Origin: Stegostoma tigrinum
Taxonomy: Eukaryota
Length of the DNA: 64,000 nucleotides
Direction: 5' to 3'
NCBI RefSeq assembly: GCF_030684315.1
Contig: NC_081386.1
Coordinates: 12,905,914 to 12,969,913, forward strand
A program made the translations under genes and the position numbers. Every line of letters begins with the position of its first letter. Position 1 is the first letter of the stretch. Under the pieces are notes generated by a model. The model did not search any database and was not told the origin of the DNA. It was given only the letters and a program-made list of their open reading frames with translations. Of the stretch, positions 11,755-59,809 are shown piece by piece.

Positions 11755-11829
11755 TCATTTTGCTGTGACATCCCCTTCTGGCTTTCTTGGACCATTTGTC
11801 AAGTAATGTTGCAAGGTTTCAGCAGTAGA
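11755..11829 (-). CDS. Putative terminal coding exon of the unidentified gene (STAETLQHYLTNGPRKPEGDVTAK*)
   Basis: Acceptor ttgttgtagacag, phase 0 compatible with exon 12909-13078, TGA stop. Confidence 0.55.
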   Translation of the reverse strand, partial: STAETLQHYLTNGPRKPEGDVTAK

Positions 11830-12908
11830 CTGTCTACAACAAGATTTCTTTTTGGGGTTCCTTCCATTGTGCGAACAATACACAATTGCTGCAGGTGTGC
11901 AACTCCTTAGATGTCTGTACCTTTCTTGCTCAGATTTCTTGACCACACTTGTTTCCCCCGTTCTAAATGTGCCAGCAGTGATAGTTTCATGGAGGTAAAT
12001 TACCATCTGTATGGCTTTCTCTCGATAAATCTTTTGATTATAATAAACTTGAGAAAGAATCATCCACAATTTCAACAACAATTCAGTATCTTATGTATCT
12101 GTCTTCAAATGGCAATTGCTGTGCTTTTCCAGATCATTAAATAAATTACCTCCAGGCTCCCCAGGCTGCTGAACTCTTATATCAAATATTCCTCTTTTAG
12201 TCTGAAGTTGAAGTCAGTCAAAAGTTTTTAGTATATTAATGTATTTGTCACTTCTTTTATCCCTTGGCAGGCTGTAACAACAGTTATGTTGCATATAAAG
12301 TGTACTAACTTGTTATGCTTCAATTTAGCACGTAGTTTGGAAGCTAAACCATATATTTAAGGTTAGTTTTCTTCAAAATGTCCAATTCTGTGTTGTGCTT
12401 GATCCATGTTTGAAATTTAATGTTCTTGGAAACATTATTTTGAACGCTTTGTCTTCCTAATACGATTATTTGTTTTCCTATCTCAGTACAATTTTATTCC
12501 AAAGTAATAGCACAACTGTTCCTTTATGGTTCCAGGAGATCACATATTTTAACATTGTATTGATTGACCCAGTCCTAGTGATGCTGATGCTTGAACTGGA
12601 CTCAAGTGTCAAGTACAGAGGAATTTATTTGATCCCGGTATCCTGGAACTGAGTTGGATGCGTGACTGCGAGATGCCCTTCGGAATTCCTTTCTTTGGGT
12701 TGAGCTGAGACATTGATCCTTCTCACCTGGACTTCTGGGCCTTGTGGAGTCTAAGTGGTACAGTGAATGCTCATCAGCCATGGAACATGTTAAAAACCTG
12801 TCCAGCAGGTACAATCCCCCCACTCAAATCTTTTTCCCAAACAATGACATAATCCAGGAGGAGCCAATGCTTTGATTTAGATGCCTCCATTTGATTTTGA
12901 ATTCATAC

Positions 12909-13078
12909 TTCTGGCTGAAGATCATGTGTGTTATAATGAGACCATGCTATCAGTAAGAAGTCACCATTTGCATTTGGTTTTTCCCCATCAGCTTTTCTCG
13001 ATGGTTTCCACTCGTGCACAATGTTCCCTCTAGGATGCGTGGATTGGAACATCACAGTTGTGCATTGACCTTGAAAGT
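12909..13078 (-). CDS. Coding exon (DFQGQCTTVMFQSTHPRGNIVHEWKPSRKADGEKPNANGDFLLIAWSHYNTHDLQPE)
   Basis: Strong acceptor ttctcattttttttctatgcag, donor GAA|gtatga, 170 nt open in phase 1->0. Confidence 0.75.
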
Positions 13079-13445
13079 CTGCATAGAAAAAAAATGAGAA
13101 GGAATGCTGTTTGTGGTCAACCTTAGACTGCCCACAATTTTCTACCAAGGAATTCCTAGATACACACACGTTTACAGAGACGAAGGAAGGAGGTTGGTTT
13201 TGGCAGTGATGGTCTTCCCTGTCAAATGTGTGCAAATATCAGCATCAGCTTTATCACCAATGTCTTTCTTCTGTGCCATAGTCATTGTATGAAAGAAACA
13301 ATTACATGTATGTTATATCTTTCACAATGTCAAGGTGTTATAAAATATTTGACAAGCAGCAAATACTTTTGAGGCATGGGTCGCATGTTTATCATAGGTT
13401 TTGATGACACCTGGTTATATGATATGAAGACTAATCCAACTTCAT

Positions 13446-13630
13446 GAGAGAGGAACTGCTGATGCTGGACACTGAGATCACAAGGTGTGGAGCTGGATGA
13501 ACACAGCCGGGCAGGCAGCATCAGAGGAGCAGGAAAGCTGATGTTTCAGATCGGTACCTCCAGACACGAAACATCTGCTTCTCTGATGCTGCCTGGCCTG
13601 CTGTGTTCATCCAGATCCACACCTTGTTAT
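13446..13630. mobile_element. Fold-back Penelope pseudo-LTR remnant
   Basis: Inverted arms (aggtgtggagctggatgaacacagc...gctgtgttcatccagatccacacctt) with an approximate TSD ctaatcca. Confidence 0.75.
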
Positions 13631-13659
13631 CTAATCCATCTTTATCATATGTTCATAAA

Positions 13660-14200
13660 TTTGAACAGAACTAGACAGGTTGGATGCTGGGAGGATGTTC
13701 CTGATGGTGGGTGCACCCAGAACCAAGTGTCACAGTCTGAGGATTCGGGGTAGACCATTCAGGACAGAGATGAGGAGACATTTCTTCACCCAAAGGATGG
13801 TGAGCCTGTGGAATTTATTACCTCAGGAAGTAGTTAATGCCAAAACATTGAATATTTTCAACAGGCAGCTAGATACAGCCCTCGGGAAAAATGGAATGAA
13901 AGGTTATGGGGAGAAAGCAGGATTAAGCTATTGAGAGAGAGATTCCTCCCCTTCTCTCCCTATTTATTCCAGTTCCCTCTCCCCATCCCCCTCTCTGATG
14001 AAGGGTCTAGGCCAGAAACGTCAGCTTTTGTGCTCCTGAGATGCTGCTTGCCCTGCTGTGTTCATCCAGTTCCACACTTTGTTATCTTAAGCTATTGAGT
14101 TGAATGATTAGCCATGATTGTGATGAATAGTGGAAAAGGCTCAAAGGGCCAAATGGCCTCCTCCTGATCCTGTGTTCCATGTGTCTACGTTTCTATGTCC
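13660..14200 (+). mobile_element. CR1 LINE 3' end, interrupted by a Penelope fragment
   Basis: ORF 13680..13934 has RPFRTEMRRHFFTQRMVSLWNLLP. The CR1 tail resumes after 14099. Confidence 0.85.
13936..14086 (+). mobile_element. Penelope pseudo-LTR fragment with hammerhead core (13995-14022)
   Basis: CTGATGAagggtctaggccaGAAACGTC. Exact 13-bp TSD ttaagctattgag at 13923-13935 and 14087-14099. Confidence 0.9.
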
Positions 14201-14229
14201 ATGCACTGACATGAGTCTTCCAAACTAGA

Positions 14230-15540
14230 GTGTTCTAGCTCTGCCCAAGTTGTGCTATTTCTACCCAGTAACATGCAGCTCCATGACATCAATGCAAAGT
14301 TGCTCCAAGGTCCTGAAGCCCTTACAAAACACCCCTCCCCAAGCTTTTCTCCTCTGTCATTAACATTGAATAACTTGTATACACATTTGAAAATGATTAC
14401 AGAGGTTATTTCTTTTTACATTTACTTTGTAGTTTGTCTTTATCTCTCACACCTTTCCCAAGTCTTTGACTTAATTTATCTATTGTTGATTGTGGATAAG
14501 AAAGGAGTATTACAAGGTACAGAAACATTTGAGGTAAGGCTGGTGATTTTGTTGGCTTTCTATTGTTAGATAGAGATTTAATTAATCAGACTGAAGAAGC
14601 TTGTATTGATGTAACTCTGGGAGTTTAGGAGAATGTAACTGTACTGTCCTGCTCCATTAATAGTGTCAGATGCCATTGCTAAGTTCTGGAGGGACTGTTG
14701 CTCGTGCAAAGAACCTTTTTCCCTTGCTGTGTGTTTTTCTTCAAAGTTCGGTTCTGTACATTACGGTACAAAATGGACTGGGAATGATTCGATTTACTGC
14801 TCAGTATGTTCTTTGGACTGTAGGACATCTTCAAGCAGTGACCTCTTATGTAGAAATAAGTACATTGTTGGTAGATGACTGGACAATTTTGTTTTCACTG
14901 ATGTGGGATTTTAGAAACACAATGCAAGCTCAGTATTGCTAAGAATTTTGGGTTGATCTTGTCACATGCATATTGTTCAGATAAGAAGTCTACCTCCTTG
15001 GTTCGGGTGATTTATTGATCTATAGGTAGTCTATATACACTGTAAAATGTTTCACATTAAGTGGCACCTCAAGACTCTGCATCTTTTGTTATTTGGACTG
15101 CTTATTCTAGATTGAGATCTTCATTCGATTGAAGAAGTTCAGTAAATGATGTATTGTTGTTGAGTAAGTAGTTCTGAATTCATTATCAGAACTCCTAACT
15201 ATATTCTGCAACCTCATAGTTTTCTGGGTGGTAAGAAAACTTTCTCGACCCTTCCTTTAAAGGATCAAATTTGCTTTGGGTATTCAGTAATATTGTCATG
15301 AGTACTAAATTTGAATTCTTCTCCTAGCTAATAGTGGGTTTTAACGGCTCACACTGCATTTTTTTAAAATAAACACTGTTCCCCCATTACTGTCTGTAAA
15401 ATATTTGACTTAATTGCATCAGTGTTCTGGCATTCTTTTTTCCAGGAGATGTTATCTTTGCAGAGAGGTTTCCTTCATACCAAGCACTCAATTTTGAGGT
15501 TTCTGCAGCTATTAGCAAATTTCAAAGCTGTACTGATGTT
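14230..15540 (-). mobile_element. Possible very old LTR-retrotransposon (Gypsy-like) internal remnant
   Basis: Only faint coding-like fragments (e.g. GEEFKFST near 15300-15325), with no intact motif. Confidence 0.25.
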
Positions 15541-15594
15541 TTTATTTAAATAAAAGATATGTTTTTGTAATCCTCACTCCTCCAGATGACCTCA

Positions 15595-15700
15595 TCCCTG
15601 AAGGAGTGGCACTGGACCCAAAACATTAATTCAGATTTCTCTCCACAGCTGCTGCCAGATCTGCTGAACTTTTCCAGCAATTTCTGTTTTTGATCTCAGC
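15595..15700 (+). repeat. Penelope-type short element, family 2 (ctctccacagatgctgccagacctgctgag) fragment
   Basis: Homologous to 25810-26030, with a degenerate core. Confidence 0.6.
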
Positions 15701-17097
15701 CCTGTCTTGGTCTTTGATGCTGCCTCAATTTTCAAGGCAGAATGTCCCAAAGCTGCATAAACTTCTATTGGATGGTTTGATGACCCATTGAGATTGGATT
15801 TGAGACAAGCTGTTTGAGAAGACAAAGTCAAGAACTTTCTTCAGGCTTAGACTTCAAAGGAATACAGTGTATTTACACCAGTGCCAAATACTGTGATTCA
15901 CTTGTAGCTCTAAACATAATGTTAACTCAAAAGCATACCCAAATGCTTTGTTTTAAGTGTTTTGAACACTCTCCTATTAGTCGTTAGACTTTGGGTTGAT
16001 GAGTGCACGTGTGCAGTATAAATCCAGCCATGATCCTAGATATTTAAGCAATTAATTGGTAATGGCACAAAGTATGGGAAGTGGGGACAGTCGTAATGGT
16101 ATTAGTTTTTTTTAATTATTCACAGGATGAGAGTATTGCTGGCTAGACAAACATTTATTGCGATTTATTTATATCCTAATTTCTCAAAGGGCAGTAAAGA
16201 GTCAACCATATTGCTGTGGGTCTGGAGTCCCATGTAGGGCAAACCTGTTTCCTTCCTGAAAAGGCATTAGTGAGTAACCTTGGGAGTATGTTTCAGAAAT
16301 TAATAATAGACACAAGTTAGGATAACGTGAAGGGGAATTTGCTCGGTACTTTATCTATGTATTTTCTGGCCTGAAGGTCTTGGTGCTGACAATGGCTAAC
16401 AAGAATTGAAATACTACTTAGCTTGTTCCAATTATGTCCCCAAAATTAGTGAGTACAAGCTTCATTGGAAGTTAATAAACAGTGCATTTTTGGCGACAGT
16501 ATGTATTATGTATTCTCAGAAATGTATATTCCTTTTAAATAGATCTAATCCCTCAACTGGATGGCTGCTTTCTACTTTGACAATATTAGTATTATATTTG
16601 TTGTATCTCACCTACTGCCACACAAATTTCATGAACTACAAACAGTGGACGAGCCAACCATGCCCACATTCTGTGAAAGAATACTAAAAAAAATTGTACA
16701 GTACAACACTAACAATTTCCACGCCATTTTGAGCAGGTAACATAAGACACCTACCCTCCCAAGTCAGTAAAACCTCTTAAGCAGTACCTCAAATGTCTTT
16801 TCAAAGAAAACTCTCATGTTCTGTTTCAATTGAGTCACTATATATCTTATTTAGCTCAAAGGAATGTAGAAATAGTTCAAAATTCAAACAATTTATGTAC
16901 ATGATTAAAATTCTTACAACTTTTAGTATACATGTCACATGGTTCAGAGCAAATATCTAGTCTCTCTTTAAAATTTTCTCTCTGAGAATCAATGGTCATT
17001 CATTTGACTCTTTAATCCATCCAGAGGTGAAAGCAATCAAACGGTACACCAGGGTCTATGATCAGACAGGATTAATCAAACACAACATCTAGCTCAC

Positions 17098-17184
17098 CCA
17101 TATACTTTCTTGTAGCTGTTCTGCAGAGTGTGGAATCGTGAAGAGGTATCATTAGCAATGGTGGCGTTGCATAATCCACATCTC
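17098..17184 (-). CDS. Coding exon (GDVDYATPPLLMIPLHDSTLCRTATRKYM)
   Basis: attatctctcag|87 nt|gtgagc. Phase 1->1 joins 12909-13078 in frame. Confidence 0.75.
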
Positions 17185-17695: not shown

Positions 17696-17835
17696 GGGTG
17701 GGTCAATTAGCTCAGTTGGCTTGACAGCTGGTTTGTGATGTGAACAGTGCAGGTTCAATTCTTACAGCAGCTGAAGTTACTATGGACGTCTTGCCTTCTC
17801 AACGTCGTCCCTGCCTGATGCTCGGCAGCACCTCT
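17696..17835 (+). mobile_element. tRNA-derived SINE, partial
   Basis: A-box tagctcagttgg and B-box ggttcaattc. Homologous to 60357-60575. Confidence 0.6.
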
Positions 17836-17854
17836 GGGGTTATGGAAACTTTAC

Positions 17855-17934
17855 CTATATGATATTGCATGGTAGTAATCATGACCACTGAATGCATAGT
17901 TTGGGTCAAAGTTCCACCCACTGTTCCAGTGTTG
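17855..17934 (-). CDS. Coding exon (NTGTVGGTLTQTMHSVVMITTMQYHI; alternative frame QHWNSGWNFDPNYAFSGHDYYHAISY)
   Basis: ttattttgaag|80 nt|gtaaag. Two frames are open. Confidence 0.65.
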
Positions 17935-19069: not shown

Positions 19070-21074
19070 CTGGGAAGCGTGCAAATAAAAAAACTTGCTT
19101 AAAGAATATTGTGGTTTCTCAATTAATGAAGTAACCATAAATAACATGTTACAGCCAAGGTGATATTACATCAGGGAATTTTCACTGGAGGCATGGAGAG
19201 AGCTGCTTTTATCCACTAGCAAGGATTTTCATAGTTGTGGGCTTATTCCTCTGCTTTGGCCATGAACTGTGCCTAGTAATTTATCCAGCCTGGGTATTTT
19301 TTTCATATTACAGACTACTAAATTCCATTATAATTTTAAATGATTCAATTTACATACCATAAACATCTTATGATATACCAATTATACATTAAACATGATG
19401 TCAGTAATCTACTGTACATTAAGTTTTACAACAAAGGAAAAAATGACCATCAAATCACTCAAATAAGGATTGGTTATTTACAACAAAGGTGATCGCTTCT
19501 CAGACACCACAGAGCGGTGGGTTGAAGTGGTCAATATATCAAAAACACTGAACAGTGATGTCATGGATGTCTTTAAGTGATTTTGCAGGTTTACGGATGT
19601 AACAGACAGCACTCGTTTAAAAAGAAACTATTCTATTAAACAAAATGAAAACTCCAGTGGCAACAGCATAAGAGCTGAAGGATTTATTTTGTCAAAACAC
19701 CATAAGAGTAATTTGTCAGTGGTTAGTTTTTGGGGGGCTGAATCTGCCATCATGTCTCTAAACCAACATTAATTACACGTTCACCTTTCACCTTATGTTG
19801 AGTGCTCTGATCGGCCCAGGTCATGTATAAATTGTCTCTCTAGCCTCTGCTGAAAATTCCATAACATTCAGTACTCGACAGTGATGTGTGAAAATTGACA
19901 TGAAGATTTTAAAATTGGGACCATGGGAGCTCAAGCATAAAATAACTTCAATCTAGTGCTCTCTCTCTAAGGAATTACGCAAAGACCCAACCAACAACAA
20001 AAGTATAGGAGAAGGTATGAGTTATTAGTGAGAAAAACACTTCTCCTGCACAAACAGAAAGGATGATCAATGGACTTAGTCAGTGAGATATTCAAGCAGA
20101 AAATTGCAGCTGTTTTTTCCTTTTTGTCAATGTGGTGATGCACTGCCAAAATCTATCTCGCCCAAAAAGAGAAGCTATAAAACAGTATTGAAAAAGGTGT
20201 AACAGCAAACTTACATTTTTGTAATTTTAAAAAGTCCCTTTTAATGTAAAATTTTACCAAATATAGAAAAATAAATGTTTATGTTTGTTTCTGATTGTAA
20301 AGATAGACACTGATTGTCGATTCCTTGAATGTGATTATTTTAATGACAGCATTTATAAAGCTCTAATTGCTTAACTTATAAAAGACATTTATCTCATCTT
20401 TCCACTGGAAGTGCTGAAAATTCATTGCAGGGTCTTACATATCTTGGTAGTTCAACTATCAACTTCTTGTTAGGGATAAAAAGATACACGAATACAGATT
20501 GTTAAGTAAATCCAAATACAACCAAGAAAATCCGTAGCCAGGCTGCTGTCTGAATTAGAATCAAATCCAAAGTCACCTTCTTCACATCAAAATTGACATT
20601 TTCATCTGCTCATGTATTAAGACCATAGTAACGTTTTAATAGATGATTATTAACAAAGGCTCTTTTCGAGTACCAGAATGAAGCATTGACTGTGCGGCTC
20701 TTCCTTACATGTGCTAATCAAATTATCTTTTGGTTAGAACTATTCACTATCAAAGTACAGGGGTGAACAATGAAATTAGTATTTTCTGTTCATCCCTGCT
20801 CTATAGAAATTCTCTGTGCCCCCTCTCCATTCTAAACAGACCTTTGGGGAAATGAATTCTCTGCTTATAAAAATGAGGAGCGCTCTTTTAGATTCAATAT
20901 CCGCGTTGGGCATTTTCAGATCCAGTATATCTTGTGCCAGATGCTAGGCAAAGTTGTTGAATCTTCAAAATGTGATTTAATCATAGTCTCAGTTGAGTTC
21001 CCCGATATATGTCATATGCATTCCACACCCTAGCTATTAGAACAAGATCTCTTAAGGAATTATTGGTGGCTTAC

Positions 21075-21110
21075 TCTGGGGATTTGCACCCACCGGGTAC
21101 AAAATCCATG
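21075..21110 (-). CDS. 36-nt exon (NMDFVPGGCKSP in the preferred frame)
   Basis: cttttctttcaagtgttttcag|36 nt|gtaagc. All three frames are open. Confidence 0.7.
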
Positions 21111-23689
21111 CTGAAAACACTTGAAAGAAAAGTTTAGCTTGACAGATAGAACTACAGTCTCCATCCAATTTTGAATTTGGGACTCCTTGTACATTGACAA
21201 TTTGTACATTTTCATGAAACTTCTTATGAATGAATTGCATTTTTCTGAATGCAATACTCCTAATTTTAAATTAATGACGATCAGATAGAAATGGTCCAAA
21301 AATTTGGGATATGTCTTTCTCCCTTACCCCACCTCCACCTCTTAAAAGTGATGACGCATGTTCAGATAAGATTCCACAGCTCAGTGATTCTGTGCTACTT
21401 TGGCAATTTTATTGGCGATCTGCTATTCAACCAAAGGATCCATCACAACCATTCTGATTTGGGAGTATCCAGGGGTCAACAGATAGCTATAATAATGCAA
21501 GCCTGTTAATTCACATTTTCTCCAGCTGAGCGTGACCAATCTGTCCCTAAAAAGTAACCAACTGGAAATCTTGAGAGTGTGTTATGTTTCATAAACACCA
21601 AGACAATCTTTAGAACAAAACCTCTTGGAAAGATTTGCTATGGAATTCAAGTGAACAACTGGTGTTAAACAGAGGTATAAATCTTAGCTGCTCACTTAGA
21701 TCAATAACATGAATCATAGTAAGGGAAGTAGAGAAATATGAAAGAATAAAACTAATTTTTACTTCAAATATCGCATTGTCTTCTTTTCTTCAGTTTCTGT
21801 AATAGCCAAAAGACATGAATCATGGGAGGCTTGGCATAATTTACCTTTGTCTCAGAACATAATACATCAAGATAGTGCACAATGGTCACCACATCATGGA
21901 CCTCCAGTAGTTATGTGATTTTCAAAAAAATCTCACATTTCTGTTCCAATTATATAGACTTGTTCTGATTTTCTTAGTATCTGTCTGCTAAGATGACAGA
22001 TGACATGTTAGGCAAGGTATTTATCACAGGTTTTGCACAACAATATATTGGCATAATTACAATACTGTGATTCTGTAAATAATTTGGAAACAATACAGCA
22101 CAGTACAAAAGAACAATTACAGCAAAAGTGAAAAGCAATTCATTCTTGTTTGCATTTTATTCGATTTAGATTCATTGTGCAGCATTAACATATTTTGCTT
22201 CTCGTTTTCATTATTCATATGCTTTTGCACCTAGAAATACACACTGCAACCAACTTCACGTTGGCAAGCCAGCCACCTGATGTTTTTTTGGAATGAAGGA
22301 CAGACACTTGTGGAATTGAAGGGGTACAATACCGAGTTTCATAATCACACAATTAAATAGACAGGAGCTTCCCAGCTTTTCCAAGAGCTTCCAAGGAACC
22401 CCAAAAGGATTTGTGCATCTTGTTCCTGGACTGGTGAAACTCTCTTGCCCACTGGTAGGTTGGTACTCACAGCAATGAAATGCAGCTCCTTAGCAGGCAT
22501 TATTTGCAATTGGTGGCCAGACAGAGAGACTATCCTTTGATCTTTCCACCATAGATTTTAATCAGTCAAGAAAGCAGCAGGATTCCCATCTAATTAAACA
22601 ATCCCCTCCTCTTCCACAACCAAACTGAAAGATTCTACCCAAAGGTTGAGTGCTTTATAACAGACAAAGTAAACCTCAATAATCAGAGGGGTAACTGTCC
22701 TGCCTGAAGGCACGGCCAATATTTCTTTGCTGCTACTTAGCACTGATGTATTTGTATTTAAAATAAAAATATGTTTTTATGCATTCAGCATGGGCTGCAG
22801 TTTTTGACAGTCACCAGTTCAATCTTCTGCCAATTGACATCAATCTCACAGCATTGATGACCTCTTAGGTAACTGAAGTCCAAGTGTTCATCTAGCAAAC
22901 TAAATCCATCAGGCGTAGCTAGCTTTTCCATACACACGTAGCCAGCAAACAATGTATTTTTCTCTGCACTTTTGTCAGGAACTATATTTGTTTCACACAA
23001 TTCATGAAGCTTCACCTAATTAAGAGGGCCCCATAAACTTCATCAGTCGCTTTGAAGATCAAGCCTAAACACTAGATACGGTAAATCTTGATGTACAAGT
23101 TTATGCAGTACATAAGATGACCCCATTTTGCTCCCTCCAAAAATCCAGTGTTTGAATATGCTCTGTGTATAAACCAAGCCCCTTTTCAGTCAGTTCATGC
23201 CAAGTTCACATAAGTCGTAAACCTCAAGACTGCACCTCACAAATAATAACTACAAGTGTCCACTAACTGGATGCAAGAGGTCAGGTAGGCAAGATGTGCT
23301 GCATTGCAACAGATGATAAGAGTTTAAGACATGCCCACTGTTTGCGTCAGACGTCAAGAACATTTCAAAATTGTGGCTATCCACACCACACACTAGGGAT
23401 TCACTATTATGCTTAGTGTATAAGTCCACCCCTGTTTTTGGAGTGAATTTTCAAGGGTCAGCCCACGTACTGACCTTTGTGGTAGTTCATGGGATGCACA
23501 CACATCAGAGGCTCTCAGCTGAAAAATGCAGCCAGTGAGGAAAGACACAGATGCGAATATTACAGGAAGCCCACAAATGCTACAGAGGCCAGACAATTGT
23601 CTGTGTCAATTGTCTCAGTGTCAGTTTGTGACTCATTCTGAGCAATGCCTTGGAGATTTTCCAACATTGAAGGTGCTATATGAATCCAA

Positions 23690-24415
23690 AGATAGTAGGA
23701 ACTGCAGATGCTGGAGAATCTGAGATAACAAGGTGTAAAGCTGGATGAACACAGCAGGCCAAGCAGCATCAGAGGAGTAAAGGTGAGTGTAGGTGGGGAG
23801 TTAGGCAGGAGATAGGTTAGTCCAAGGGGGACGGGGCGGGATGAGGTTCGTAGGTCGGAGATGGGGGTGGGGCTTGAGGTGTGAGGAGGGGATAGTTGGA
23901 AGGAAGGACAGGTTAGGGAGGTGGGGACAAGCTGGGCTGGTTTTGGGATGCGGTGGGGGCCGGGGAGATTTTGAAGCTTGTGAAGTCCACATCGATACCA
24001 TTGGGCTGCAGGGTTCCCAAGCGGAATATGAGTTGCTGTTCCTGCAACCTTCAGTTAGCATCGTTGTGGCACTGCAGGAGGCCCAGGATGGACATGTCAT
24101 CTAAAGAATGGGAGGGGGAGTTGAAATGGTTCACGAATGGGAGGTGCAGTTGTTTAGTGCGAACCGAGCGTAGGTGTTCTGCAAAGTGGTCACCTTTACT
24201 GGCTCCATCCCCACCTCTTTGACCTGCCTGTCTCCTCTCCCCTTATCTTCTCCTCTATCCATCTTCTATTCACCTCCCCCTCTCTCCCTATTTATTTCAG
24301 AACCCCCTTCCCCTCCCCCATTTCTGAAGAAGGGTCCAGGCCTGAAACGTCAGCTTTCCTGCTGCTCTGATGCTGCTTGGCCTGCTGTGTTCATCCAGCT
24401 CCACACCGTTATATG
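23690..24415. mobile_element. Penelope insertion: minus-strand GIY-YIG 3' fragment followed by an inverted pseudo-LTR
   Basis: 23800-24190 matches 1990-2420. Plus-strand hammerhead variant CTGAAGA...GAAACGTC at 24324-24351. TSD tgaatccaa at 23681-23689 and 24416-24424. Confidence 0.9.
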
Positions 24416-24750
24416 TGAATCCAAGTTGTTTTTATTCAAATACATGTTGGCAATGATTTGCTGTGGACACACAAATTGAAACACACTGCTGAAAATTGCA
24501 AGTGCATAATGTTTAATGAACAGCAAATTTAAGGTCCTATTCACCTGACCTTCTCCCTCATGAATTTCACTCACTGCTTGGAGAACAGGATCATTTTTTA
24601 CAAAAACAAATTGAAAGTTAAAAAAAATCGCTTCTCCCCATGATCACACCTGTAAGCTAAACCTGTTAGAATGCATTTTTTCCTTTCTTCCCTCAAAATG
24701 GTTAAGATAAAACCAACTGTATTCCCCTGAGGTTATTATTAGTCATTTAC

Positions 24751-24775
24751 TTTTGATCATATACCACAGGAATAC
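24751..24775 (-). CDS. 25-nt micro-exon (IPVVYDQ)
   Basis: tcttttgtcccccgaatttcaacag|25 nt|gtaaat, phase 1->2. Confidence 0.55.
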
Positions 24776-25740
24776 CTGTTGAAATTCGGGGGACAAAAGA
24801 TGCTACTTATTCTTGTTAATATTGCATGACAAGCACATATCCCTCAAAAAGAAATCAGGAGGTGAGGTTTCATCAGAAAAACAGGCAGTAAATGATGGAA
24901 CACAACCATAACTGTTTATAAAAGAGATCCAGTTTGTTTTTACAGCTGCCTTATAGATGTTTCCATAAGCTGCGACATTACACTTCACTGAAGGATCATT
25001 AACTCTTAGTCAAATACATATCTGTTCAAATTTCACTTATATATTACTCAACATTTTTTGTCAATATTTTATACCTTCTCTAGCCTCCTTAACACTGCAA
25101 TGTTCCGTGTAGAGCGGCCTGAGTTTAGGATTCCCAAGAGTAAAGTGATGCATGCAGTGTTTTGGTCAGATACGGGCTCTTTAATTCCCTAATGTCTGTC
25201 TGCCCTAAAAAAAATTTGCTTAAAAAACTGCAACTGGAAAGTTCATAACAGTAATGTTTTCTTGACCCTTGAAAGGTCGTGGCTTTGGGTGCAGAGCTGA
25301 GTTTTACTTCATAGGAGCAGAGATTGGAGAATAGAGTCTAAGTGTCAGCAGAGACCAATTCACATCAGTCCTAGGAACATTGGCTAAAAAGGTAGCTCCA
25401 CAAACTCGGTGTCTGACTCGATTCCTGGATCTCCGTTCCACGCTCAAGAACGATCCAGACTCTATGCCAGGAGCAAAGTCTTCTCGTTTTCAATTGATAT
25501 TTTGCGTTCCGCTTTGTCGAAGCATTTCACTCTCCCTCCTATTGTCTCTGTGTCGTTTTGTGACTCATTATCCTCCTTTGAAATGCCTTGGAAATTGTTC
25601 AATGTGTGATATGAATGGCAGTTTGTTTTAGTAAACTTCATGTTGGAAATGATACGCAATGGATGCTTTGATTTATTTAAACATACTGCTTGATATACAC
25701 TGCTGAAATTGCAGATCCATAATTAGACGGTAAATATTAC

Positions 25741-25783
25741 ACCTCATTTGCTCGATCGGGTCTCCAATGAATGTTACTCCATG
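25741..25783 (-). CDS. Candidate 43-nt exon (HGVTFIGDPIEQMR)
   Basis: tctgttcttgctctgcgag|43 nt|gtaata. Supplies the 0->1 phase bridge, but the GAG acceptor is atypical. Confidence 0.4.
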
Positions 25784-25809
25784 CTCGCAGAGCAAGAACA
25801 GATTTTGTA

Positions 25810-26030
25810 CAGAAACAGGAATTGCTAGAGAAACTCAGCAGGTCTGGCAGCATCTGCGGTGATAAAACTGAGTTAAAGTTCCACTCCAGTGACCTTGTCA
25901 GAACGTTCTGAAGAAGGCTCACTGGACCCGAAACATTGACTCTACATTCTCTCCACAGATGCTGCCGGACCTGCTGAGCTTTTTCAGCATCTTTTTTTGT
26001 TTCAGAGAGCTAGCATCCACAGTTCATTGT
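25810..26030. mobile_element. Fold-back short element, family 2, with hammerhead-like core
   Basis: Inverted arms aaactcagcaggtctggcagcatctg / cagatgctgccggacctgctgagcttt. Central ctgaagaaggctcactggacccgaaac. Confidence 0.75.
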
Positions 26031-26400
26031 TTCTTGGTGTTCATGAGTTGTTGACGTACAAACCCAGCAGCAGGATTTGCACTTCACCTCCCTTTCTAGG
26101 GAAATCACCGAAATATTCACGTAAGAAAACAGCGAAAGAAGGAAATCTCCTTTGCTCGTAGGATAAGGGAGATCTTTCCTCTCGCAGTGCAGAGCCTTTG
26201 AGCTCTGTCAGTGCACTTTTCTGAAAGGGCAAGCAAGCTGAAGCGTATCTAAAAACTAATGCTGTCAACAACAAATATTCAGTCAAGTTCATATCCACAT
26301 GTCTATTTCTTTTGGTAGATGTGCACCAAACTTGAAGGGCATGTTGGTGGATATGAACTTTTGTACTAGTTCTTGACACAAAAAGCATAAACCTATGTAC

Positions 26401-26500
26401 CTCTGCAAACCGTGGTTTGGCAAAGGTATAGAAGAAGCGAGTGCAAACAACTGGTCTCACAGAGGCTTGAGGGAAATCCTGAGTGCCGATGTCACTGTAC
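26401..26500 (-). CDS. Coding exon (RYSDIGTQDFPQASVRPVVCTRFFYTFAKPRFAE)
   Basis: tgtgcgttcttgcag|100 nt|gtacat. Only phase 2->0 is open. Confidence 0.7.
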
Positions 26501-27985
26501 CTGCAAGAACGCACAGTACTTTAATTTCTCTTTAAATGCAATGCCTACATTTTCATAACCAGTATAAAGTCATCAGTCAAAGAATGGTAATTAATAGGAC
26601 AAGTAGATAAGCAGAAAGTGAATCCGCCCACGATGAAATTTCTTTTTAATGCTCAGTAAGATATTACTTTCTTGTTTGCCTGTGGCTTGTATTTTGGTGC
26701 TGTGTTTAGCAAATTTAGAGTGCATTACGGATAATGCAGTAATTGGTAAATCTGCACCGAAGCACCCTGCAGCTTCTTCTGAAGGCATCATCTGTCTCCG
26801 TTCTAACCCTCATAGCTCTTGCAACTGGTTAGATCCAATTAAAACCCTGCAGACTATTTGTCAAGGAAAAAACTGGAACCCAATATTTGTTTTAAAATAA
26901 TTGGCATGCAAATAGCTGCAAATGAGAAACAATGCAACGGAGACAACATAGGCTCCATTGAGCTGTCATAAGAACAGCCTATCACTATTACTAATCTACA
27001 GTTTCCATATTCCTTTTAAAAGGGAAATGCCTGCATTATCTAAGCTGTTTAATGTCACACTACATTCTTTGATTTAACACTAGTTATACAGCCCAGCAAA
27101 AGAGCAGTTTGAAGCTATTTCATGCTCTAGTAGATAACTGTTGTTTATTAACCATGTCGGCAAAACACAATGTCACTGTAACACAGGATTTTTATCTTAA
27201 TCTGTAATCTTTGATGTGTCAACACATCTATCTAGAACATTTAAATAAATGGCCAACTGGCACATTCATATTGGAGGCGAATCTTTAATATTAATCTTCA
27301 ATTGAAATTACAGGTGAACATTTGAAATCTGAACAATACCACTACTTAAAGCATCAATTAAAATTCGCATTCATGCAACTGCAAAGTTCACCTTTGAATG
27401 TTTACTATCAGTGATTACTTAATGCGTCAGTTGGCCACAGTATTTGATTAGGCAACAACGTAGGAAGTCGGGTGTAAACAAATTTCCAGAAAAGATGAAC
27501 ATTAGCTGTTTAATGTGGTGCAAGGGAAAACGTAACTTTTTTTAAAAATTATTTTATCTGTTTTTTCTTGTTTCTTACCAAAACATGAAAAAAGAGCTTC
27601 TTAGGTTTAGTCCCACAGTAGCATTTGTGAGCGAGGGCTTGAACATCTCAAGGGCATTGCGCCTGAAATTACACACACTACGGAACCATTTATCATTGGC
27701 TGACATGTGTCATGTTCCAGACTGGAGCAGGGAGAGGTTACAAGTGAAGACTGCTCCTTTGTTGATCAGCATCTAACATAACATAAGCGCTTATTTAAGA
27801 AAATAATAATAGAAGGAAAACTCAGCCATTCAGTAGCATATCATATATATTTGTATTTTTCTGCAAATGTCCATTTTCTAAAAGTGTAAATTTGGAATTA
27901 TTGACTTGTTTTGAGAAGAACAATTATTCAGCTATCCTCAAACTCAAGGTGAAAAATAACTTGTTTGTAAATCCTTTTTACTTAC

Positions 27986-28023
27986 CTAAGATAATGTTTC
28001 CTTTGCGAGAAGCAATGAGTATA
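27986..28023 (-). CDS. 38-nt exon (YTHCFSQRKHYL)
   Basis: gtgctgtag|38 nt|gtaagt with a consensus donor. Phase 0->2 matches the next exon. Confidence 0.6.
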
Positions 28024-28885
28024 CTACAGCACTGTAATAACATTGACCTGATAGACTAAGCTCCTGTAATTTCTCAAAGCACGAGGTTTATTAGCCAAAG
28101 TGCATTTGGTATGTGATTGGACAGGTTAATACTGGCAAATTCCATTCAGCCTCTTTGAAGGTTGTAGCTCCAAAACATGTTTGAAATATTAAATAACTAA
28201 TTCTACGCTTTTCCTCAACTTACATTGTTTTGTAAACAAATCATATCCAAGGTCTTGTTCTGTAAGAATCTGCCAAAAGATCTTATTTTTCTCTCCATAA
28301 TTATGTCGAATGTTTTGACTTATTTTTAACCACAATTTGCACAGTTTTGACACTGAAGCTGCTGCACTGAAGGCAGGAGGTTTTGCTGAAGTTTGCGCTC
28401 TTATTCCAGTTCAAAGACCTTGAAGCCAGTAAGTTTATGAGTGCAGATTTTTTTGATTGAATGCATTAAGCAGATGGCTTTTTCACATGTCCCTCAGACA
28501 TTTTTTGCAGGCTGGCAGGTCTCATCCTAAACCCCTGTACTGTAAACAACATTTAGCATGTTTAGAGCTTTGGTTTAGAAGCTGTTACAAAGTTTGAATA
28601 TCTGTAGCTAGTATTCCTGAAACAAGTCACATTGCATGATGTCACTGTGTATCATATATTAATGAGTAAAATTGTGGATACTGTGGAATAATTTCATTAG
28701 CCATTCAGCTGTTGGGTTTCAGAGTCCAGGAAGATCTCAGATCAAATTAAAGCCTGCCTGCACCATGCAGTCGTATATATTTCTTTGAAAGTCAACTCCG
28801 GCTCCCCCCACCTCACACACACATAAAACACAACCTCCATCTGATGCTGACCGGTGTGCCCATTCCCCCCACCCCCCCAAGCACC

Positions 28886-29391: not shown

Positions 29392-29444
29392 CTTCCTTAG
29401 TTCTGATCCCAAGCCGAAAGCTTCAAGGAACTTTCTTCTGTAAA
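29392..29444 (-). CDS. Exon (VYRRKFLEAFGLGSELRK); acceptor position uncertain
   Basis: Consensus donor AAG|gtgagt. Acceptor ttttcctag gives phase 1->0, and other AGs lie nearby. Confidence 0.6.
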
Positions 29445-31236: not shown

Positions 31237-31258
31237 CTTTAGTTTTACTTGCTTCCAT
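31237..31258 (-). CDS. 22-nt micro-exon (MEASKTK)
   Basis: tctctatttttaaag|ATGGAAGCAAGTAAAACTAAAG|gtatgt. Confidence 0.6.
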
Positions 31259-37772: not shown

Positions 37773-37874
37773 TTGCCACCACTTTCCTGATCTATAAAGC
37801 CCTGTAGCTCTCTTCTTGTGGATTGAGGAGTCAACTATTCTGACTGAGGCAATTTCCCGGCAGAACTTTGGCAG
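37773..37874 (-). CDS. Coding exon (LPKFCREIASVRIVDSSIHKKRATGLYRSGKWWQ)
   Basis: Pyrimidine tract...catattgcag|102 nt|gtaact. Only phase 0 is open. Confidence 0.75.
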
Positions 37875-37969: not shown

Positions 37970-38003
37970 TGAATTGTTCCCGTCCTCCTCTACTCCTTTG
38001 GTG
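37970..38003 (-). CDS. 34-nt exon (HTKGVEEDGNNS)
   Basis: tttctttgtttttctcccttggcaaag|34 nt|gtgagt, followed by a 95-nt intron. Confidence 0.7.
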
Positions 38004-38945: not shown

Positions 38946-38971
38946 TGGATAAACACTTGTTGGTAAAAGTG
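38946..38971 (-). CDS. 26-nt micro-exon (HFYQQVFI)
   Basis: tttctaattctaaacccag|26 nt|gtgagt, phase 0->2. Confidence 0.6.
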
Positions 38972-39051: not shown

Positions 39052-39069
39052 AGACGCCTCCTTCATCAT
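39052..39069 (-). CDS. 18-nt micro-exon (MMKEAS), or 22 nt if the upstream AG at 39073 is used
   Basis: ttctaatag|gcag|ATGATGAAGGAGGCGTCT|gtaagt. Confidence 0.6.
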
Positions 39070-40498: not shown

Positions 40499-40569
40499 CT
40501 GAAGCAACTTGCACCAGTGATCAATGCAACCACCTGGACCCAGGAGAAGCAGCATGAATGTGGGATCCT
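40499..40569 (-). CDS. Candidate exon (KDPTFMLLLLGPGGCIDHWCKLLQ)
   Basis: Good pyrimidine tract ending ...tgtcaaag, weak donor CAG|gtcatt. Provides the 1->0 phase bridge. Confidence 0.35.
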
Positions 40570-41035: not shown

Positions 41036-41092
41036 TTAAATGGTCAGGATTTCCACTCCAGAAGTCTGCTTTCACCGTGGCCAGGAAGGAGA
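41036..41092 (-). CDS. 57-nt exon (FSFLATVKADFWSGNPDHL)
   Basis: ttttcttgtgcatttcactgttactag|57 nt|gtaatt. Only phase 1 is open. Confidence 0.55.
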
Positions 41093-41445: not shown

Positions 41446-41503
41446 GATATGTTGTGAGGGAGTTCCCTTGAGCAGCTGGAAGTGGTGTTTCTGTTTTATC
41501 AGA
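41446..41503 (-). other. Diverged duplicate of exon 42458-42533 (SDKTETPLPAAQGNSLTTY); alternative exon or pseudo-exon
   Basis: Strong acceptor ttttcctactctttgtacag, weak donor C|gtatta. The upstream intron is homologous to that of the 42.5-kb exon. Confidence 0.35.
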
Positions 41504-41619
41504 CTGTACAAAGAGTAGGAAAACATTAACCAGTAAATCCAAACAAGCCATCAGCCTACCTTAATGTACGTGGCACAATTGTTTTGGTTGGATCAAGCCT
41601 TAATTCTTAATTGTCAGAA

Positions 41620-42457: not shown

Positions 42458-42533
42458 ATTTTCTCCCCTCCCTAGTTCCTGGTCTATATCCGTCCATGGG
42501 CAGAATTATTTTAAGTGTTGCTTCTGTGTGTAC
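42458..42533 (-). CDS. Coding exon (VHTEATLKIILPMDGYRPGTREGRK)
   Basis: tactgtctctgttcctccccag|76 nt|gtgagc, phase 0->1. Confidence 0.65.
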
Positions 42534-43771: not shown

Positions 43772-43783
43772 CTTTATATCCAA
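43772..43783 (-). CDS. 12-nt micro-exon (LDIK)
   Basis: ctatttgtttaattgcag|TTGGATATAAAG|gtgagt, with consensus sites. Confidence 0.6.
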
Positions 43784-45473: not shown

Positions 45474-45505
45474 CACTCCATAAATATTGTCATGTTTCAT
45501 AAAAT
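45474..45505 (-). CDS. 32-nt exon (FMKHDNIYGV)
   Basis: actttaacag|32 nt|gtaaga, phase 1->0. Confidence 0.5.
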
Positions 45506-53203: not shown

Positions 53204-53256
53204 TAATCCTCGGTTTTCGCAATGCCAGCACAAGAAGTCATAAACCATGGTATTAC

Positions 53257-53312: not shown

Positions 53313-53909
53313 CTAGAACACAAAGTCCGCCAAATCCAACTCGCGTGCATTGAAATGGCTGACAGAAAATATGCCCTATTTCATAATCCAATCCTCTGTA
53401 CACTTTAGTTTTATCACAGTGTAAGAGCCAGGGCAGGTAATCAAAAACAGAAAATTCTGGAAATACTTAGCAGGCCAGGCAGCACCTGGGAAACAGAACT
53501 AACACTGAAGGCCAATGACCTGATAATGTTGGCTATGTATGATTAAGGATGGAAGCTTCCAACTCCCAAACAACGTGGGCTATGGTACAAAATTTGGACA
53601 AATCACGGAAGAAGTCAGGTGAGGTTCTTCTCTTATTGAGGAAATTGTGTGCTCCAAGCAAGTCCTGGACAATGAAATCAGATTCGTGCTCATGAGTAGC
53701 GAGAGGCCTATTAGCATGGATTATTGCTCATTATCAGCCTCATTATCACCAGATCTCACTCCATTACTATGAAGGTTCTCATTCTACCATTAACCAGATA
53801 AAAACTAGACACCAAGAATTTGCAATGTGCAAATCTAAGCAACGATCGGGTGACTCCAGCTCACCACTTGTTATTCTGCAGCTCCATCTTAGAAACCCAG
53901 CATCAACAT

Positions 53910-55158: not shown

Positions 55159-55175
55159 ACTTGATTCCGAGTGAT
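55159..55175 (-). CDS. 17-nt micro-exon
   Basis: ctaaattcttcctttttag|ATCACTCGGAATCAAGT|gtaagt. Confidence 0.6.
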
Positions 55176-55901
55176 CTAAAAAGGAAGAATTTAGATTACT
55201 TTATGCTTTATGCATCTGTTTCAGCCAGATCTATTGGAGAACTAAATACACTGATTTGTCTATTGACTTAACCTCTTGGTACCTTTTAATGTTGCTCATA
55301 AGTTGAGTCATAACAGTGATGACTTTGGTGTATAATGGGGAGAATTGTACTTAGATTGCCCGTAAGATGGTGGTTCTCTACAATGCTGTATATTTAAATG
55401 TTTCCTCACACTTGCCTGCTTAGATTTCTTCCATTTGCTTTTGGGTCAATATCATTTCCTCCCATAGATACTTTGAATCAACCTGTTCTGAAATGATGCA
55501 AAGCACCTCTGGAGCAGGTAGAGCATTACCACCACATCACTAGAGCGTTTTGAAACTATTGTTACTCAACTTGTTTGCAGGGACAATGGCACAGGTTCAG
55601 AAAGATGGGGCTTGAACGTGGACCTTTTAGTCCAGAGCTAGAGACAATATGACTTCACCACAAAGTCTCCAAAGTAGAGTTTCACCATCTGCCATGGTGG
55701 GATTCAAACCCATGTCTCCAAACACTAGGGATCCTGGATTACTAATCTTGTGACTTAACCATTATATAAAAACCTCTCCTAATTTCATGCCATAAATTTT
55801 GAAAAATAAATGGCATGTGTTAATAAAGATAGATTTGTGATAATACTGATGCATTCACAAAATCACCGATGATCTTTTTAGATGATAACAAAGCTTCTAG
55901 A

Positions 55902-55995
55902 GCTCCTGAGATGCTGCTTGGCCTGCTGTGTTCATCCAGCCTCACATTTTATTATCTTGGAATTCTCCAGCATCTGCAGTTCCCATTATCTCTCT
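55902..55995 (+). mobile_element. Penelope pseudo-LTR terminal fragment
   Basis: Reverse complement of 39740-39832, with an 8-bp TSD cttctaga. Confidence 0.85.
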
Positions 55996-56901
55996 CTTCT
56001 AGAAATAATCTATCTGCTTTCTTTATCAATACAGCTGCATGTTAAAATTTCCATTTTATACTATGAGGTACATTTTCACTTTCAATCCCATTGACAGCAA
56101 AGGAGACAATGGTGTGCGGGGTCAACAGAGGTTTCACAATGAATTCACTTTTTCACCCAGCTAATAGCACTTACAAATGACTTCTGGGTCCTTATTCAAT
56201 TAGAAAAGATGGGTGTGAATTTCTGTAAACTTGTCACAACTCCAACATTTAAAGGAGAATCAGAGTTAAAAAATAATCGAAGTGCCAGAACAGAGCCACA
56301 AACTTGAGGGACGGACTATCAATGTGTGAAAACAGCAACATGCCCCTCAGCCTGGTTCCTGGGTACCACATTGCAGTTATTTAGATTTGCATGGAATGTT
56401 CTGTTCCCGACACACAGGAGGGAGAAGCCAGTCTTGGAGAGAAAGCGGACATGACTGAAAGTGGCCAAGGTAATGAAGAGCAAGAATATCATTTCTAACT
56501 TCTGGATACAGAAGCTTAATGACCTGATCAGAGCAAGAAAGTTGAATGAAACTCCCCATTCAAGCCACAGAAACACTCTGGGTTCTTAATAAGTGTCATA
56601 TTTGACCGAAATGTTAATTATCTTTCTCTCTCAAAGTTGCTGCCTGATGTACTGAGTTTCTCTTGCACTTTGTGCTTTTATTATTTAATAAACGCTCACC
56701 CTGCATTTTCCTCAAACGAACAAATCTTGTCTGTGTCTCCCTCTGTCTATACAGGGGTACTCCCCTCACAGCATCATCTTACCAGCCACCATTGACATCC
56801 TCATGTCACACCTATATCCCAAAGAGACTCTCCACAAATATTGCCCTTATATCCCCTTGCTCACATTCAGAGGTATCCTCTTTCCTCCTTGTAGAAGATG
56901 A

Positions 56902-57141
56902 TGTAGTGATTGGAATGAGGTTGACAAGATGGATCTCATTGCATATGAGTTCCCTGATTGGGGCTGTAAGCCTGGATTGATAAGGGAGTCCAAGCTGACA
57001 GATATAAACAGGAGCCTCAGGGATTCTCCTAACACTAAGAACTGGCTCTGAGCTAGCTAGTCAAAGTCCATATCGTGTGTGTGCATAAGTAAATAAAGGG
57101 TGACTTGGTGATGGGATACCAGCCTCAGTGGAATTATTTCA
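56902..57141 (+). mobile_element. LTR (same family as 32984-33188)
   Basis: tgtagtgattggaa...aattatttca termini with TATA-like gatataaa and aataaa. No clear TSD. Confidence 0.65.
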
Positions 57142-57594
57142 AGAGCACAAACCACAAGAAAATGATCAAGAAGCGGAGATTGTCCTACAATAATTTTCAT
57201 TTTGACAATGCATGGGAGACACTGGAGATAAGCCAAGCCGTGGCATAATTGACCATTAACAATTGAGGCATCAGGTTCTCCCACATTTGCACCTTGATGC
57301 AGAGTTGATGGACCATTCTTTGAAGTCAAGCACCATCCTCCAAGGAGATGGCAAATTAAACCTGTTCCTCAGCACAGGCTCAAATTAGAAGCTTGCAAAT
57401 GTTCCCCATATTGCTGTGAAGGATGGCAGATCAAAGGCAAAAAGCCCTGAGGTAGCAATAAAGTTCAACAAAGTATTGAAAACGCCTCCAAAGGAATTGT
57501 AGTTTATTCACAGACCAAGTCTTCTGAGTTAAAAAAAAACTTTTACTTGGGTAGGGTAACAGCTGATGTATGTTAGTATTTGAGTCTTCCTTAC

Positions 57595-57633
57595 CTGCCA
57601 ATTGCTGAACTTTGTCAACTCTCTTTGCTTTAT
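57595..57633 (-). CDS. Candidate 39-nt exon (IKQRELTKFSNWQ or DKAKRVDKVQQLA)
   Basis: Strong donor CAG|gtaagg, weak acceptor ctcattag. Confidence 0.3.
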
Positions 57634-59773
57634 CTAATGAGTTCCAGGGGGTTTGGGAAATTCATGCACTCAGATCGAATGACGGAATCCCGGATTAAAA
57701 TGGTTAATGAACATTTAACGATCATAAATCTCATTCCAGTCTGATCCATGCGAGTTTCCACATGCTAACAAGTGCATTTGAGTCAAACATGTCAGTCTGT
57801 GAGAAATGACTAAAAATCTGTCGCCTGGTCATATTCTTGAAATGTTAACTCTGTTTATCTCCAAACAAATACTGTGGAACATGCAGATTATTTTCAGCTT
57901 TTTTTTATTTCGGGTTTTCAATATTTTTGTTTTTTTGACAATACAAATGTTTGACTCATGTTCTATTTTCACAAATGTTAATTCCAGATCAATGGAAGTT
58001 AAATCCAATTTACGTGAAGTTTCCTTCCTAAGAGTTAATTTAACAATAGCACTGTGTTGTTTAAGGTCCTGTTGTTAACATACTTAGTCATTTATTTATT
58101 TACATTTGGACTAAGTTGACCCTGCACCTTAAGCTAGGAATAGACATTTCCAAAGGATAACAGTCAATAAAAGAGATTGATGTGCATGGAGGATCCAGGT
58201 AGATTTTCTTTCACATCAAAGATTGACAATCAATATACCATTAAATACCAATAATATGACCCTTCCTACACAAACATCAGCAAATTAGTATAAATACACC
58301 TTCACTGCAAACAATAATAAGCAGTAAGTTCTACTTTACTAACTCTGCAGGTTCTGTACTACATAGCCTTGACAATGATGCATCTGTTTATGGAGAGCTA
58401 TTTGGTTTAGGCACTTTTTCCACCAATAATGCAAACCAGATTTTCTTTCTGATTCTGAATATAGCCAGCTCCAAAAACTCAAAGCATCTAATGTTTTGTT
58501 TTGTATTGAATCAGGAAAATAAGAACACATTCTAACTTTTATGCCAAAGTGTATTTCCAAAGAAAAATGTCAAAATACAACAGCTGACTGTCGCTTTGAA
58601 CTGCAGCCTTCTACTCAAACAGTTCTCAATATTTATGGTTCTAATCAGATGGCAACTCTTGGACAGCTCACTAAGTAATGAAATTCAGTTATAAAGGTTT
58701 TGGATTGTAGCACAATCCAACATGCTGAACAAAGTCATTTTACAACTTGGGCATCTGATTTTAATTTCCTTATACATTGTAGAATGCCTGTGATGTAAGC
58801 TCCTTTGATAGTTCCTGAAGATAGAAACTGGGAGACACCAATAGTAATATTTACCTTCTCACGTTCTTAGAGGTTAGCTCATGTCTCCAAAGAAGATGAA
58901 ATGCCGAGCAGGCAGGCTGAATCTACCTGCAAACGTCTACACAACTATGATGTAAATTCTGTAAACCATTAAAAAAAAGGATCCATCAATTAGGATGATG
59001 TATCTCCATGACATTGTCTTTGCTTGCTGCTGGAAGCCTTCACATGGTGCCAAAGGGGAACTACATGCCACAGAGATCATTAGCTTTGTACGGGCAGCTT
59101 TCTTCAAGGTTAATGGTGACATCATCTTTGGGCTGATTGCAAAACTATTGTTTAATTTATAACTTCATTCAGATCAGGTATCTGTTCATTTGCGACTAAT
59201 TCTCAAACATTTACACTTTTGTCTCTTGTACAACTTTTAGTTAAAAACACAGAATATGTGTATCCTATGAATTAATCATAATGGATTTTTAGCATCAAAA
59301 GGAATAATTTATTCATCTGTACACACAGTTATAAACGACCATAAAATCCATCTTTTTGTTTCCCATTTTTCATTATTTCATAACATAAATGATTTAAACT
59401 GTATTTAGACTGTACAAACACAATTGTTTTAATTTTGCATAATTACACTGCTTGATTAACATACATGTACAATAATCACATTGCATTTGTGTTTGAATGT
59501 ATGGTTAAATATTGTTGATACTTTAATAAATTATATAGTTTTTTTTTCCAATGAAAAGAAACATTGTTAAACTGAATTCAGTGCAATTCATTTTGAAATT
59601 TTATATTGTATTCACTTTAAAAAGGAAAACCATAAAACAAAAGAACATTTTCTAAATTCAGAAATTAATTATTATGGGATGCATCATGATGTAAACTGAA
59701 TGAGAGTTAATGTGACTATCACATTGAAAACTAATGAATAGAAGGTAAACAAAATAAAGGCTCAATTGTTTAC

Positions 59774-59809
59774 CTTTGTAGAAACTTGATGTTACTCCAT
59801 TCTCTTGTA
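59774..59809 (-). CDS. 36-nt exon (QENGVTSSFYK or TREWSNIKFLQ)
   Basis: cccctcttttctctatag|36 nt|gtaaac. Confidence 0.6.

What the first reader, a model, noticed from the sequence alone, without database searches (positions are those of the whole stretch)
11755..59809. Hidden micro-exon-rich protein-coding gene on the minus strand, not recognisable as a named gene
Seen: about 20 GT-AG exons, many only 12-45 nt (12, 18, 22, 25, 26, 32, 34, 36, 38 nt), join in compatible phases without stops from 45505 to 11755. The chain reads FMKHDNIYGV-LDIK-VHTEATLKIILPMDGYRPGTREGRK-FSFLATVKADFWSGNPDHL-KDPTFMLLLLGPGGCIDHWCKLLQ-MMKEAS-HFYQQVFI-HTKGVEEDGNNS-LPKFCREIASVRIVDSSIHKKRATGLYRSGKWWQ-MEASKTK-VYRRKFLEAFGLGSELRK-YTHCFSQRKHYL-RYSDIGTQDFPQASVRPVVCTRFFYTFAKPRFAE-HGVTFIGDPIEQMR-CIPVVYDQ-NMDFVPGGCKSP-DNTGTVGGTLTQTMHSVVMITTMQYHI-GDVDYATPPLLMIPLHDSTLCRTATRKYM-DFQGQC...HDLQPE-STAETLQHYLTNGPRKPEGDVTAK*. 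Further upstream exons lie at 53.3, 55.2 (17 nt) and 59.8 kb, with uncertain frame. The ORF track shows only scattered pieces. Inference: a globular-looking protein, possibly from an uncharacterised family. Many micro-exons are not multiples of 3, so they would be constitutive. Two bridging exons (25741, 40499) have weak sites, so overfitting is possible.
Basis: partly seen in the sequence, partly recalled or inferred. Interest (0 to 1): 0.7.

Follow-up and report, generated by a model that had tools for sequence, protein, structure and literature searches.

The report
Unproven shark gene in enhancer desert
About twenty short stretches with splice signals in a shark's gene-poor region can be joined on paper into a stop-free protein that matched nothing in the searches run; they more likely than not mark a real, unannotated spliced transcript, but similar chains arise by chance, the last third of the proposed protein is likely wrong, and no RNA evidence could be tested.

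Summary
The described pieces exist: 23 AG/GT-bounded segments join into 418 stop-free codons. That alone proves little: control blocks give stop-free chains of 18-40 pseudo-exons, and this span ranks 6th of 40. For a real gene: all three local tandem duplicates in the span contain a proposed exon (72 of 20,000 random placements), and the 13-exon core looks more coding-like than splice-matched controls (5 of 1,000). Against: two core exons found no relative, although 9 of 10 control proteins of this genome are in the collection; branch points are ordinary. The 3' end is likely wrong: 25783-25741 is a donor-less duplicate of 24573-24545, which would shift the frame; 13078-12909 runs into a decayed repeat; the 'last exon' has two more copies. 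The span lies in the desert between NR2F2 and an arrestin-domain gene and holds three non-coding elements with paralogues in the sister desert. RNA was not testable. Odds: coding gene 0.40, chance chain 0.35, non-coding or decayed transcript 0.25.

The parts
59774..59809 (-). candidate exon, 36 nt, strong sites
55159..55175 (-). candidate micro-exon, 17 nt, strong sites
53313..53358 (-). candidate exon, 46 nt, very weak donor; doubtful
45474..45505 (-). core candidate exon, 32 nt, one open frame
43772..43783 (-). core candidate micro-exon, 12 nt, strong sites
42458..42533 (-). core candidate exon, 76 nt, one open frame; its acceptor region is duplicated at 41465-41604
41465..41604 (-). old local duplicate of the 42533 acceptor region, no good donor; likely dead copy
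41036..41092 (-). core candidate exon, 57 nt, one open frame, modest sites
40499..40569 (-). core candidate exon, 71 nt, modest sites
39052..39069 (-). core candidate micro-exon, 18 nt; 80-nt intron to the next
38946..38971 (-). core candidate micro-exon, 26 nt
37970..38003 (-). core candidate exon, 34 nt; 95-nt intron to the next
37773..37874 (-). core candidate exon, 102 nt, one open frame; single copy; no relative found
31237..31258 (-). core candidate micro-exon, 22 nt, strong sites
29392..29444 (-). core candidate exon, 53 nt, strong donor
27986..28023 (-). core candidate exon, 38 nt, strong donor
27646..27735 (+). non-coding element with one paralogue in the sister desert on contig C3; likely enhancer
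26775..26932 (+). non-coding element with one paralogue on C3, carries an octamer motif; likely enhancer
26401..26500 (-). core candidate exon, 100 nt, one open frame; single copy; no credible relative
24751..24775 (-). candidate micro-exon, 25 nt; frame differs between the two readings
24545..24573 (-).
21075..21110 (-). candidate exon, 36 nt, open in all frames
19911..19975 (+). third, shorter non-coding element colinear with the C3 desert (checked in 1.28 Mb of fetched DNA only)
17855..17934 (-). candidate exon, 80 nt, open in both readings
17098..17184 (-). candidate exon, 87 nt, open in both readings
16612..16670 (-). strong-scoring pseudo-exon whose acceptor comes from an interspersed repeat; not counted
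12491..12982 (-). decayed interspersed repeat (LINE-type by a recalled motif; Pfam gave no name)
9931..9994 (-). second copy, 64 nt, good donor, poor acceptor
8833..8896 (-). third copy, 64 nt, good donor; one open frame, which fits the alternative reading

Best explanation
Shown: the sites, the open frame, three local duplications that each contain a proposed exon, and three paralogous non-coding elements in the would-be introns. Inferred: the gene grew by tandem exon duplication, leaving one usable and one or two dead copies per unit (42533 over 41503, 24573 over 25783, 8896 over 9994 and 11829). Because 15 of 23 lengths break the frame, most exons would have to be included together. With 24573 used, the frame of the next three exons shifts and the chain runs open to 8833; both ends of the gene are unknown. 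Guess, without direct evidence: a fast-evolving soluble protein (no 19-residue hydrophobic stretch above 1.4) made in few tissues, such as gonad, which would explain its absence from annotation.
For: All 6 local same-strand duplicate hits in the 6-62 kb block (3 families, found without reference to exons) overlap proposed exons: 72 of 20,000 random placements. Core codon and amino-acid score above random open stretches (6 of 1,000) and above splice-matched pseudo-exons (5 of 1,000; GC 45 of 1,000). AG-free zone of the core slightly long (98 of 2,000). Splice-only chain score in the upper tail (ranks 1 and 3 of 30; 6 of 40). Two minimal introns of 80 and 95 nt. A Cys-Thr-Arg codon pattern occurs at 8 non-repeat sites in 464 kb, 3 of them in chain exons, one only in the alternative frame (noticed after the fact).
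Against: No relative for exon 37874 among proteins of 71-2000 aa or for exon 26500 in the 50% library (the single hit is a tandem-repeat artefact), although 9 of 10 control proteins of this genome are in the collection, with other sharks' orthologues. Null blocks give 18-40-piece chains; with a codon term the span is ordinary (9 and 17 of 29 blocks at or above it). Branch-point score, GC step and the 19-exon AG-free zone are not above matched controls. The 9994 and 8896 copies differ at 4 bases, all changing residues. No promoter, start or credible last exon found. The codon test does not separate the two 3' frames.
Confidence: 0.4

Rival explanations
1. The chain is largely an overfitted string of cryptic splice-site pairs in a true gene desert; the functional sequence in the span is the set of paralogous non-coding elements that likely act as long-range enhancers.
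For: Every control block yields such chains; strong short-exon density is within the range of other blocks; no database relative despite a positive control; three pieces are repeat-linked or donor-less; the human interval is a 1.62-Mb desert (PMC7530604, supplement rows); the sister desert has the same non-coding elements but no match to either joined chain above shuffles (best 30.1 bits against 28.8).
Against: Does not explain why all three local duplications contain proposed exons, nor the coding-like composition.
Confidence: 0.35
2. Many exons are real, but the transcript is a spliced long non-coding RNA or a decaying pseudogene; the open frame comes from choosing a compatible subset of real and cryptic exons.
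For: Explains the exon duplications, the mild splice excess and the absence from protein collections together; the duplicate copies show no sign of protein constraint. The unit points away from the arrestin-domain gene's 5' end, 196 kb off, as a divergent transcript would (inference).
Against: The core has a coding-like score, and six core exons are open in one frame only, yet fit their neighbours.
Confidence: 0.25

Closest known systems
Bystander genes in genomic regulatory blocks, e.g. FAM172A beside NR2F1 (PMC7530604; passages and supplement rows read)
   Same: A long multi-exon unit inside the desert of an NR2F gene, with duplicated non-coding elements in its would-be introns.
   Different: That paper lists FAM172A as the only NR2F bystander, downstream of the receptor; this span is on the upstream side, and ancient bystanders have wide homology, which was not found here.
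Paralogous conserved non-coding sequences from the vertebrate genome duplications (PMC3595034; passages read)
   Same: Short single-copy elements shared between two paralogous deserts, colinear and on the same strand.
   Different: Whether these three are in published lists was not checked; enhancer activity is untested.
Vertebrate micro-exons of 30 nt or less (PMC7821500; search listing and start of abstract only)
   Same: Six pieces of 12-26 nt that aligners and gene finders can miss.
   Different: Described there as conserved cassette exons; here 4 of the 6 are frame-breaking and conservation could not be tested.
Tandemly duplicated, mutually exclusive exons (recalled class)
   Same: Two or three similar exon copies within about 1-3 kb.
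   Different: Most extra copies here lack a good donor or acceptor, and substitutions are not synonymous-biased.

Membership tests
Protein-coding multi-exon gene | Canonical splice sites and a continuous open frame | tested here: met
   23 pieces, 418 codons; alternative chain of 22 pieces also open
Protein-coding multi-exon gene | Chain exceeds chance assembly | tested here: inconclusive
   ranks 1 of 16, 1 and 3 of 30, 6 of 40
Protein-coding multi-exon gene | Coding-like codon and residue use | tested here: inconclusive
Protein-coding multi-exon gene | Homologue or annotated product | tested here: not met
   two core exons searched; control 9 of 10 present
Protein-coding multi-exon gene | Spliced RNA joining the exons | not testable with these tools
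   no RNA holder listed; query about 96% intron; the four runs are DNA-like contigs
Protein-coding multi-exon gene | Purifying selection across species | not testable with these tools
   no other shark genome held
Protein-coding multi-exon gene | Start, promoter, last exon and poly(A) signal | tested here: inconclusive
   the only CpG-rich patch upstream before the arrestin-domain gene that was examined is a young repeat; candidate last exon ordinary
Ancient bystander gene of the NR2F block | Duplicated non-coding elements inside the unit | tested here: met
Ancient bystander gene of the NR2F block | Exon remnants or a paralogue in the sister desert | tested here: not met
   400 kb of C3, no match above shuffles
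Ancient bystander gene of the NR2F block | Homologues outside vertebrates | tested here: not met
   short queries, limited reach
Paralogous conserved non-coding elements | Single paralogous match at the corresponding place | tested here: met
   two elements genome-wide; third within fetched DNA
Paralogous conserved non-coding elements | Conserved in other vertebrates; enhancer activity | not testable with these tools
   no vertebrate genomes held
snoRNA or miRNA host gene | Small RNA family in the introns | tested here: not met
   5 weak matches, none at Rfam's gathering score

The most novel reading that the evidence does not exclude
A protein-coding gene of 20 or more tiny exons with no known relatives, missed by the annotation of this and other sharks, survives inside the NR2F2 regulatory desert with ancient duplicated enhancers in its introns and is still growing by tandem exon duplication.
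Probability: 0.3. Interest if true: 0.65.

Novelty: new member of a known kind. Interest (0 to 1): 0.35.

Why it matters
If the gene is real, a desert that is gene-free in humans holds an orphan protein gene in sharks, either a lost bystander or a lineage-born gene, and micro-exon-rich genes are being missed in shark annotations. If it is not, the case shows that stop-free chains of 20-40 GT-AG pieces arise in any 50 kb of shark DNA, a useful null for such claims. The three paralogous non-coding elements are testable enhancer candidates either way.

Tried and rejected
RNA: no RNA holder listed; the 6-kb query was about 96% intron, below the tool's threshold for RNA holders, so it says nothing on expression. 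The four runs laid behave as DNA contigs; they match the assembly at 24383-25838 and 25960-28881. P0001 rejected as a single-member tandem-repeat frame. Of three word-based protein searches only one used a core exon; one search used the repeat-linked 170-nt piece and an intronic stretch, so both are uninformative. The joined protein was not searched, folded or scanned outside my scripts, which leaves remote homology open. The Atlas was unavailable. Pfam on 10 + 12 window pieces: apart from repeat ORFs, only one sub-threshold match (E 0.19). PDB on 3 exons: none. Own-genome paralogue searches for 3 pieces: only the locus itself. A 155-codon frame 16 kb beyond the window as last exon: rank 51 of 84 in coding score, 9 frames as long in 464 kb, no Pfam match and only chance-level PDB matches, pLDDT 32, no metagenome relative; rejected. 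16670-16612 as support for the alternative frame: dropped, repeat-derived. An 80-codon frame at 25465-25704 as a longer exon: substitutions against its duplicate look neutral by inspection. Internal protein repeats: all-against-all of 249 candidate peptides gave nothing above chance. CpG-rich patch at 142.8-143.4 kb: young repeat. Literature searches (listings, three papers read in passages) showed no description of a gene in this shark interval; supplements were searched only for PMC7530604.
Full report
Setting. The window is contig C43, 12,905,914-12,969,913, of a 3.2-Gb genome. Nine of 10 single-exon receptor frames from this genome are identical to RefSeq proteins labelled Stegostoma tigrinum, clustered with orthologues of other sharks and a ray. 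A COUP-TF gene lies 1.44 Mb to the left; it matches the COUP-TF2 structure slightly better than the C3 copy does (325.8 against 324.2 bits), and I call them NR2F2 and NR2F1 partly from recalled signature residues. An Arrestin_N gene lies 192 kb beyond the right end ('ARRDC4' is a recalled name; the Nr2f2-Arrdc4 and Nr2f1-Arrdc3 pairings are in PMC8608329, passages). I recognised no other gene by eye among strong exon candidates in 464 kb. In humans this interval is 1.62 Mb without a protein gene (PMC7530604, supplement rows).

Observation. All pieces were located from the window file. With corrected ends, 23 pieces give 1256 nt and 418 codons with only the final stop. The stated lengths are right, and the three upstream pieces do join in frame. 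The scorer uses approximate weights from general knowledge, not a trained model.

Chance. A best-chain search under the same rules built 29-46 pieces in all 16 blocks of 52 kb; the focal block scored highest, its left neighbour almost the same. In 30 blocks of 40 kb the two minus-strand blocks over the locus ranked 1 and 3 on splice score, but adding a codon term removed the excess. With the block matched to the finding and 39 controls from both deserts, it ranked 6th. Strong short candidates were within the range of other blocks. So the open chain is not itself evidence.

Signs of real exons. A search for local same-strand duplicates, blind to exons, gave 6 hits in the 6-62 kb block, against 0-5 in eight other blocks. 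Random placement of 23 exons hits all three in 72 of 20,000 trials. The core's codon and residue score exceeds random open stretches (6 of 1,000; model trained on 30 receptor frames, with 30 kelch pieces as control) and splice-matched pseudo-exons (5 of 1,000). Of five further splice features, only the core's AG-free zone was marginal (98 of 2,000); branch points were ordinary. The duplicates show no protein constraint: the 9994 and 8896 copies differ at 4 bases, all changing residues.

The 3' third. 25535-25828 is an old duplicate of 24424-24617 plus 23610-23679, the second copy split by a repeat insertion. Using the sister shifts the frame of 21110, 17934 and 17184, all of which stay open, and reaches 8896-8833 in its only open frame (22 pieces, no stop). 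The codon test cannot choose between the frames. The 'last exon' lies between two remnants of another repeat without aligning to it. No credible last exon or promoter was found.

Homology. Exon 37874 found no relative among proteins of 71-2000 aa, exon 26500 none credible among 1.84 billion representatives, and both are single-copy. As this species' annotated proteins are in the collection, an annotated product with exon 37874 in this frame should have been found; the control shows coverage, not the sensitivity of a 40-residue query. So this is not a well-studied gene in disguise as far as these two exons show, and apparently not an annotated one. Remote homology of the joined protein remains untested.

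Non-coding elements. Comparing with 400 kb of the sister desert on C3 showed no match to either joined chain above shuffles, but three colinear same-strand DNA matches at 19911-19975, 26775-26932 and 27646-27735, 69-77% identical, about 230 kb (C43) and 260 kb (C3) from the arrestin-domain genes. For the latter two, C3 is the only other place found in the genome. They overlap no proposed exon; one carries an octamer, another TGACA and ATTTATCA motifs (binding by POU, MEIS and PBX-HOX factors is recalled). They are likely enhancers duplicated with the NR2F loci, the kind described in PMC3595034 (passages).

Verdict. A spliced unit is more likely than not (0.65), split between a coding gene with a corrected 3' end (0.40) and a non-coding or decayed transcript (0.25); an overfitted chain gets 0.35. 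These odds are judgement, not computation. Any function is a guess. Interest 0.35: RNA or a second shark genome would settle the question quickly, and nothing here yet shows an unusual mechanism.

Noticed in passing
window 19911-19975, 26775-26932, 27646-27735 (+); C3 about 91.995-91.997 Mb (L170, L171): Three non-coding elements colinear with the sister NR2F desert; likely duplicated enhancers.
   Followed up: partly
window 8799-8899 and 9898-9998: 100-nt local duplicate at 92% identity with abrupt ends, starting at an acceptor and running 35 nt past a donor; a recent copy or gene conversion.
   Followed up: partly
L021, about 2.1 kb left of the window start (C43 near 12,903,800), minus strand: A 26-nt candidate exon with very strong splice sites (score 13.2); may continue the unit.
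   Followed up: no
   Followed up: partly
L022:3534-3998 (-): Single-copy 155-codon open frame with an acceptor and a downstream AATAAA; coding score ordinary.
   Followed up: yes
window 1744-3867: Retroelement with reverse transcriptase and GIY-YIG matches below Pfam's cut-offs, Penelope-like; many local copies.
   Followed up: no
C43 11.47 Mb and 13.16 Mb; C3 90.48 Mb and 92.26-92.35 Mb: Both NR2F genes face their arrestin-domain neighbours head to head; C3 shows several adjacent Arrestin_N loci.
   Followed up: no
window coordinates 113762-113853 and 115334-115425 (L005-L006): Exact 92-nt local duplicate 1.6 kb apart in non-repeat DNA.
   Followed up: no
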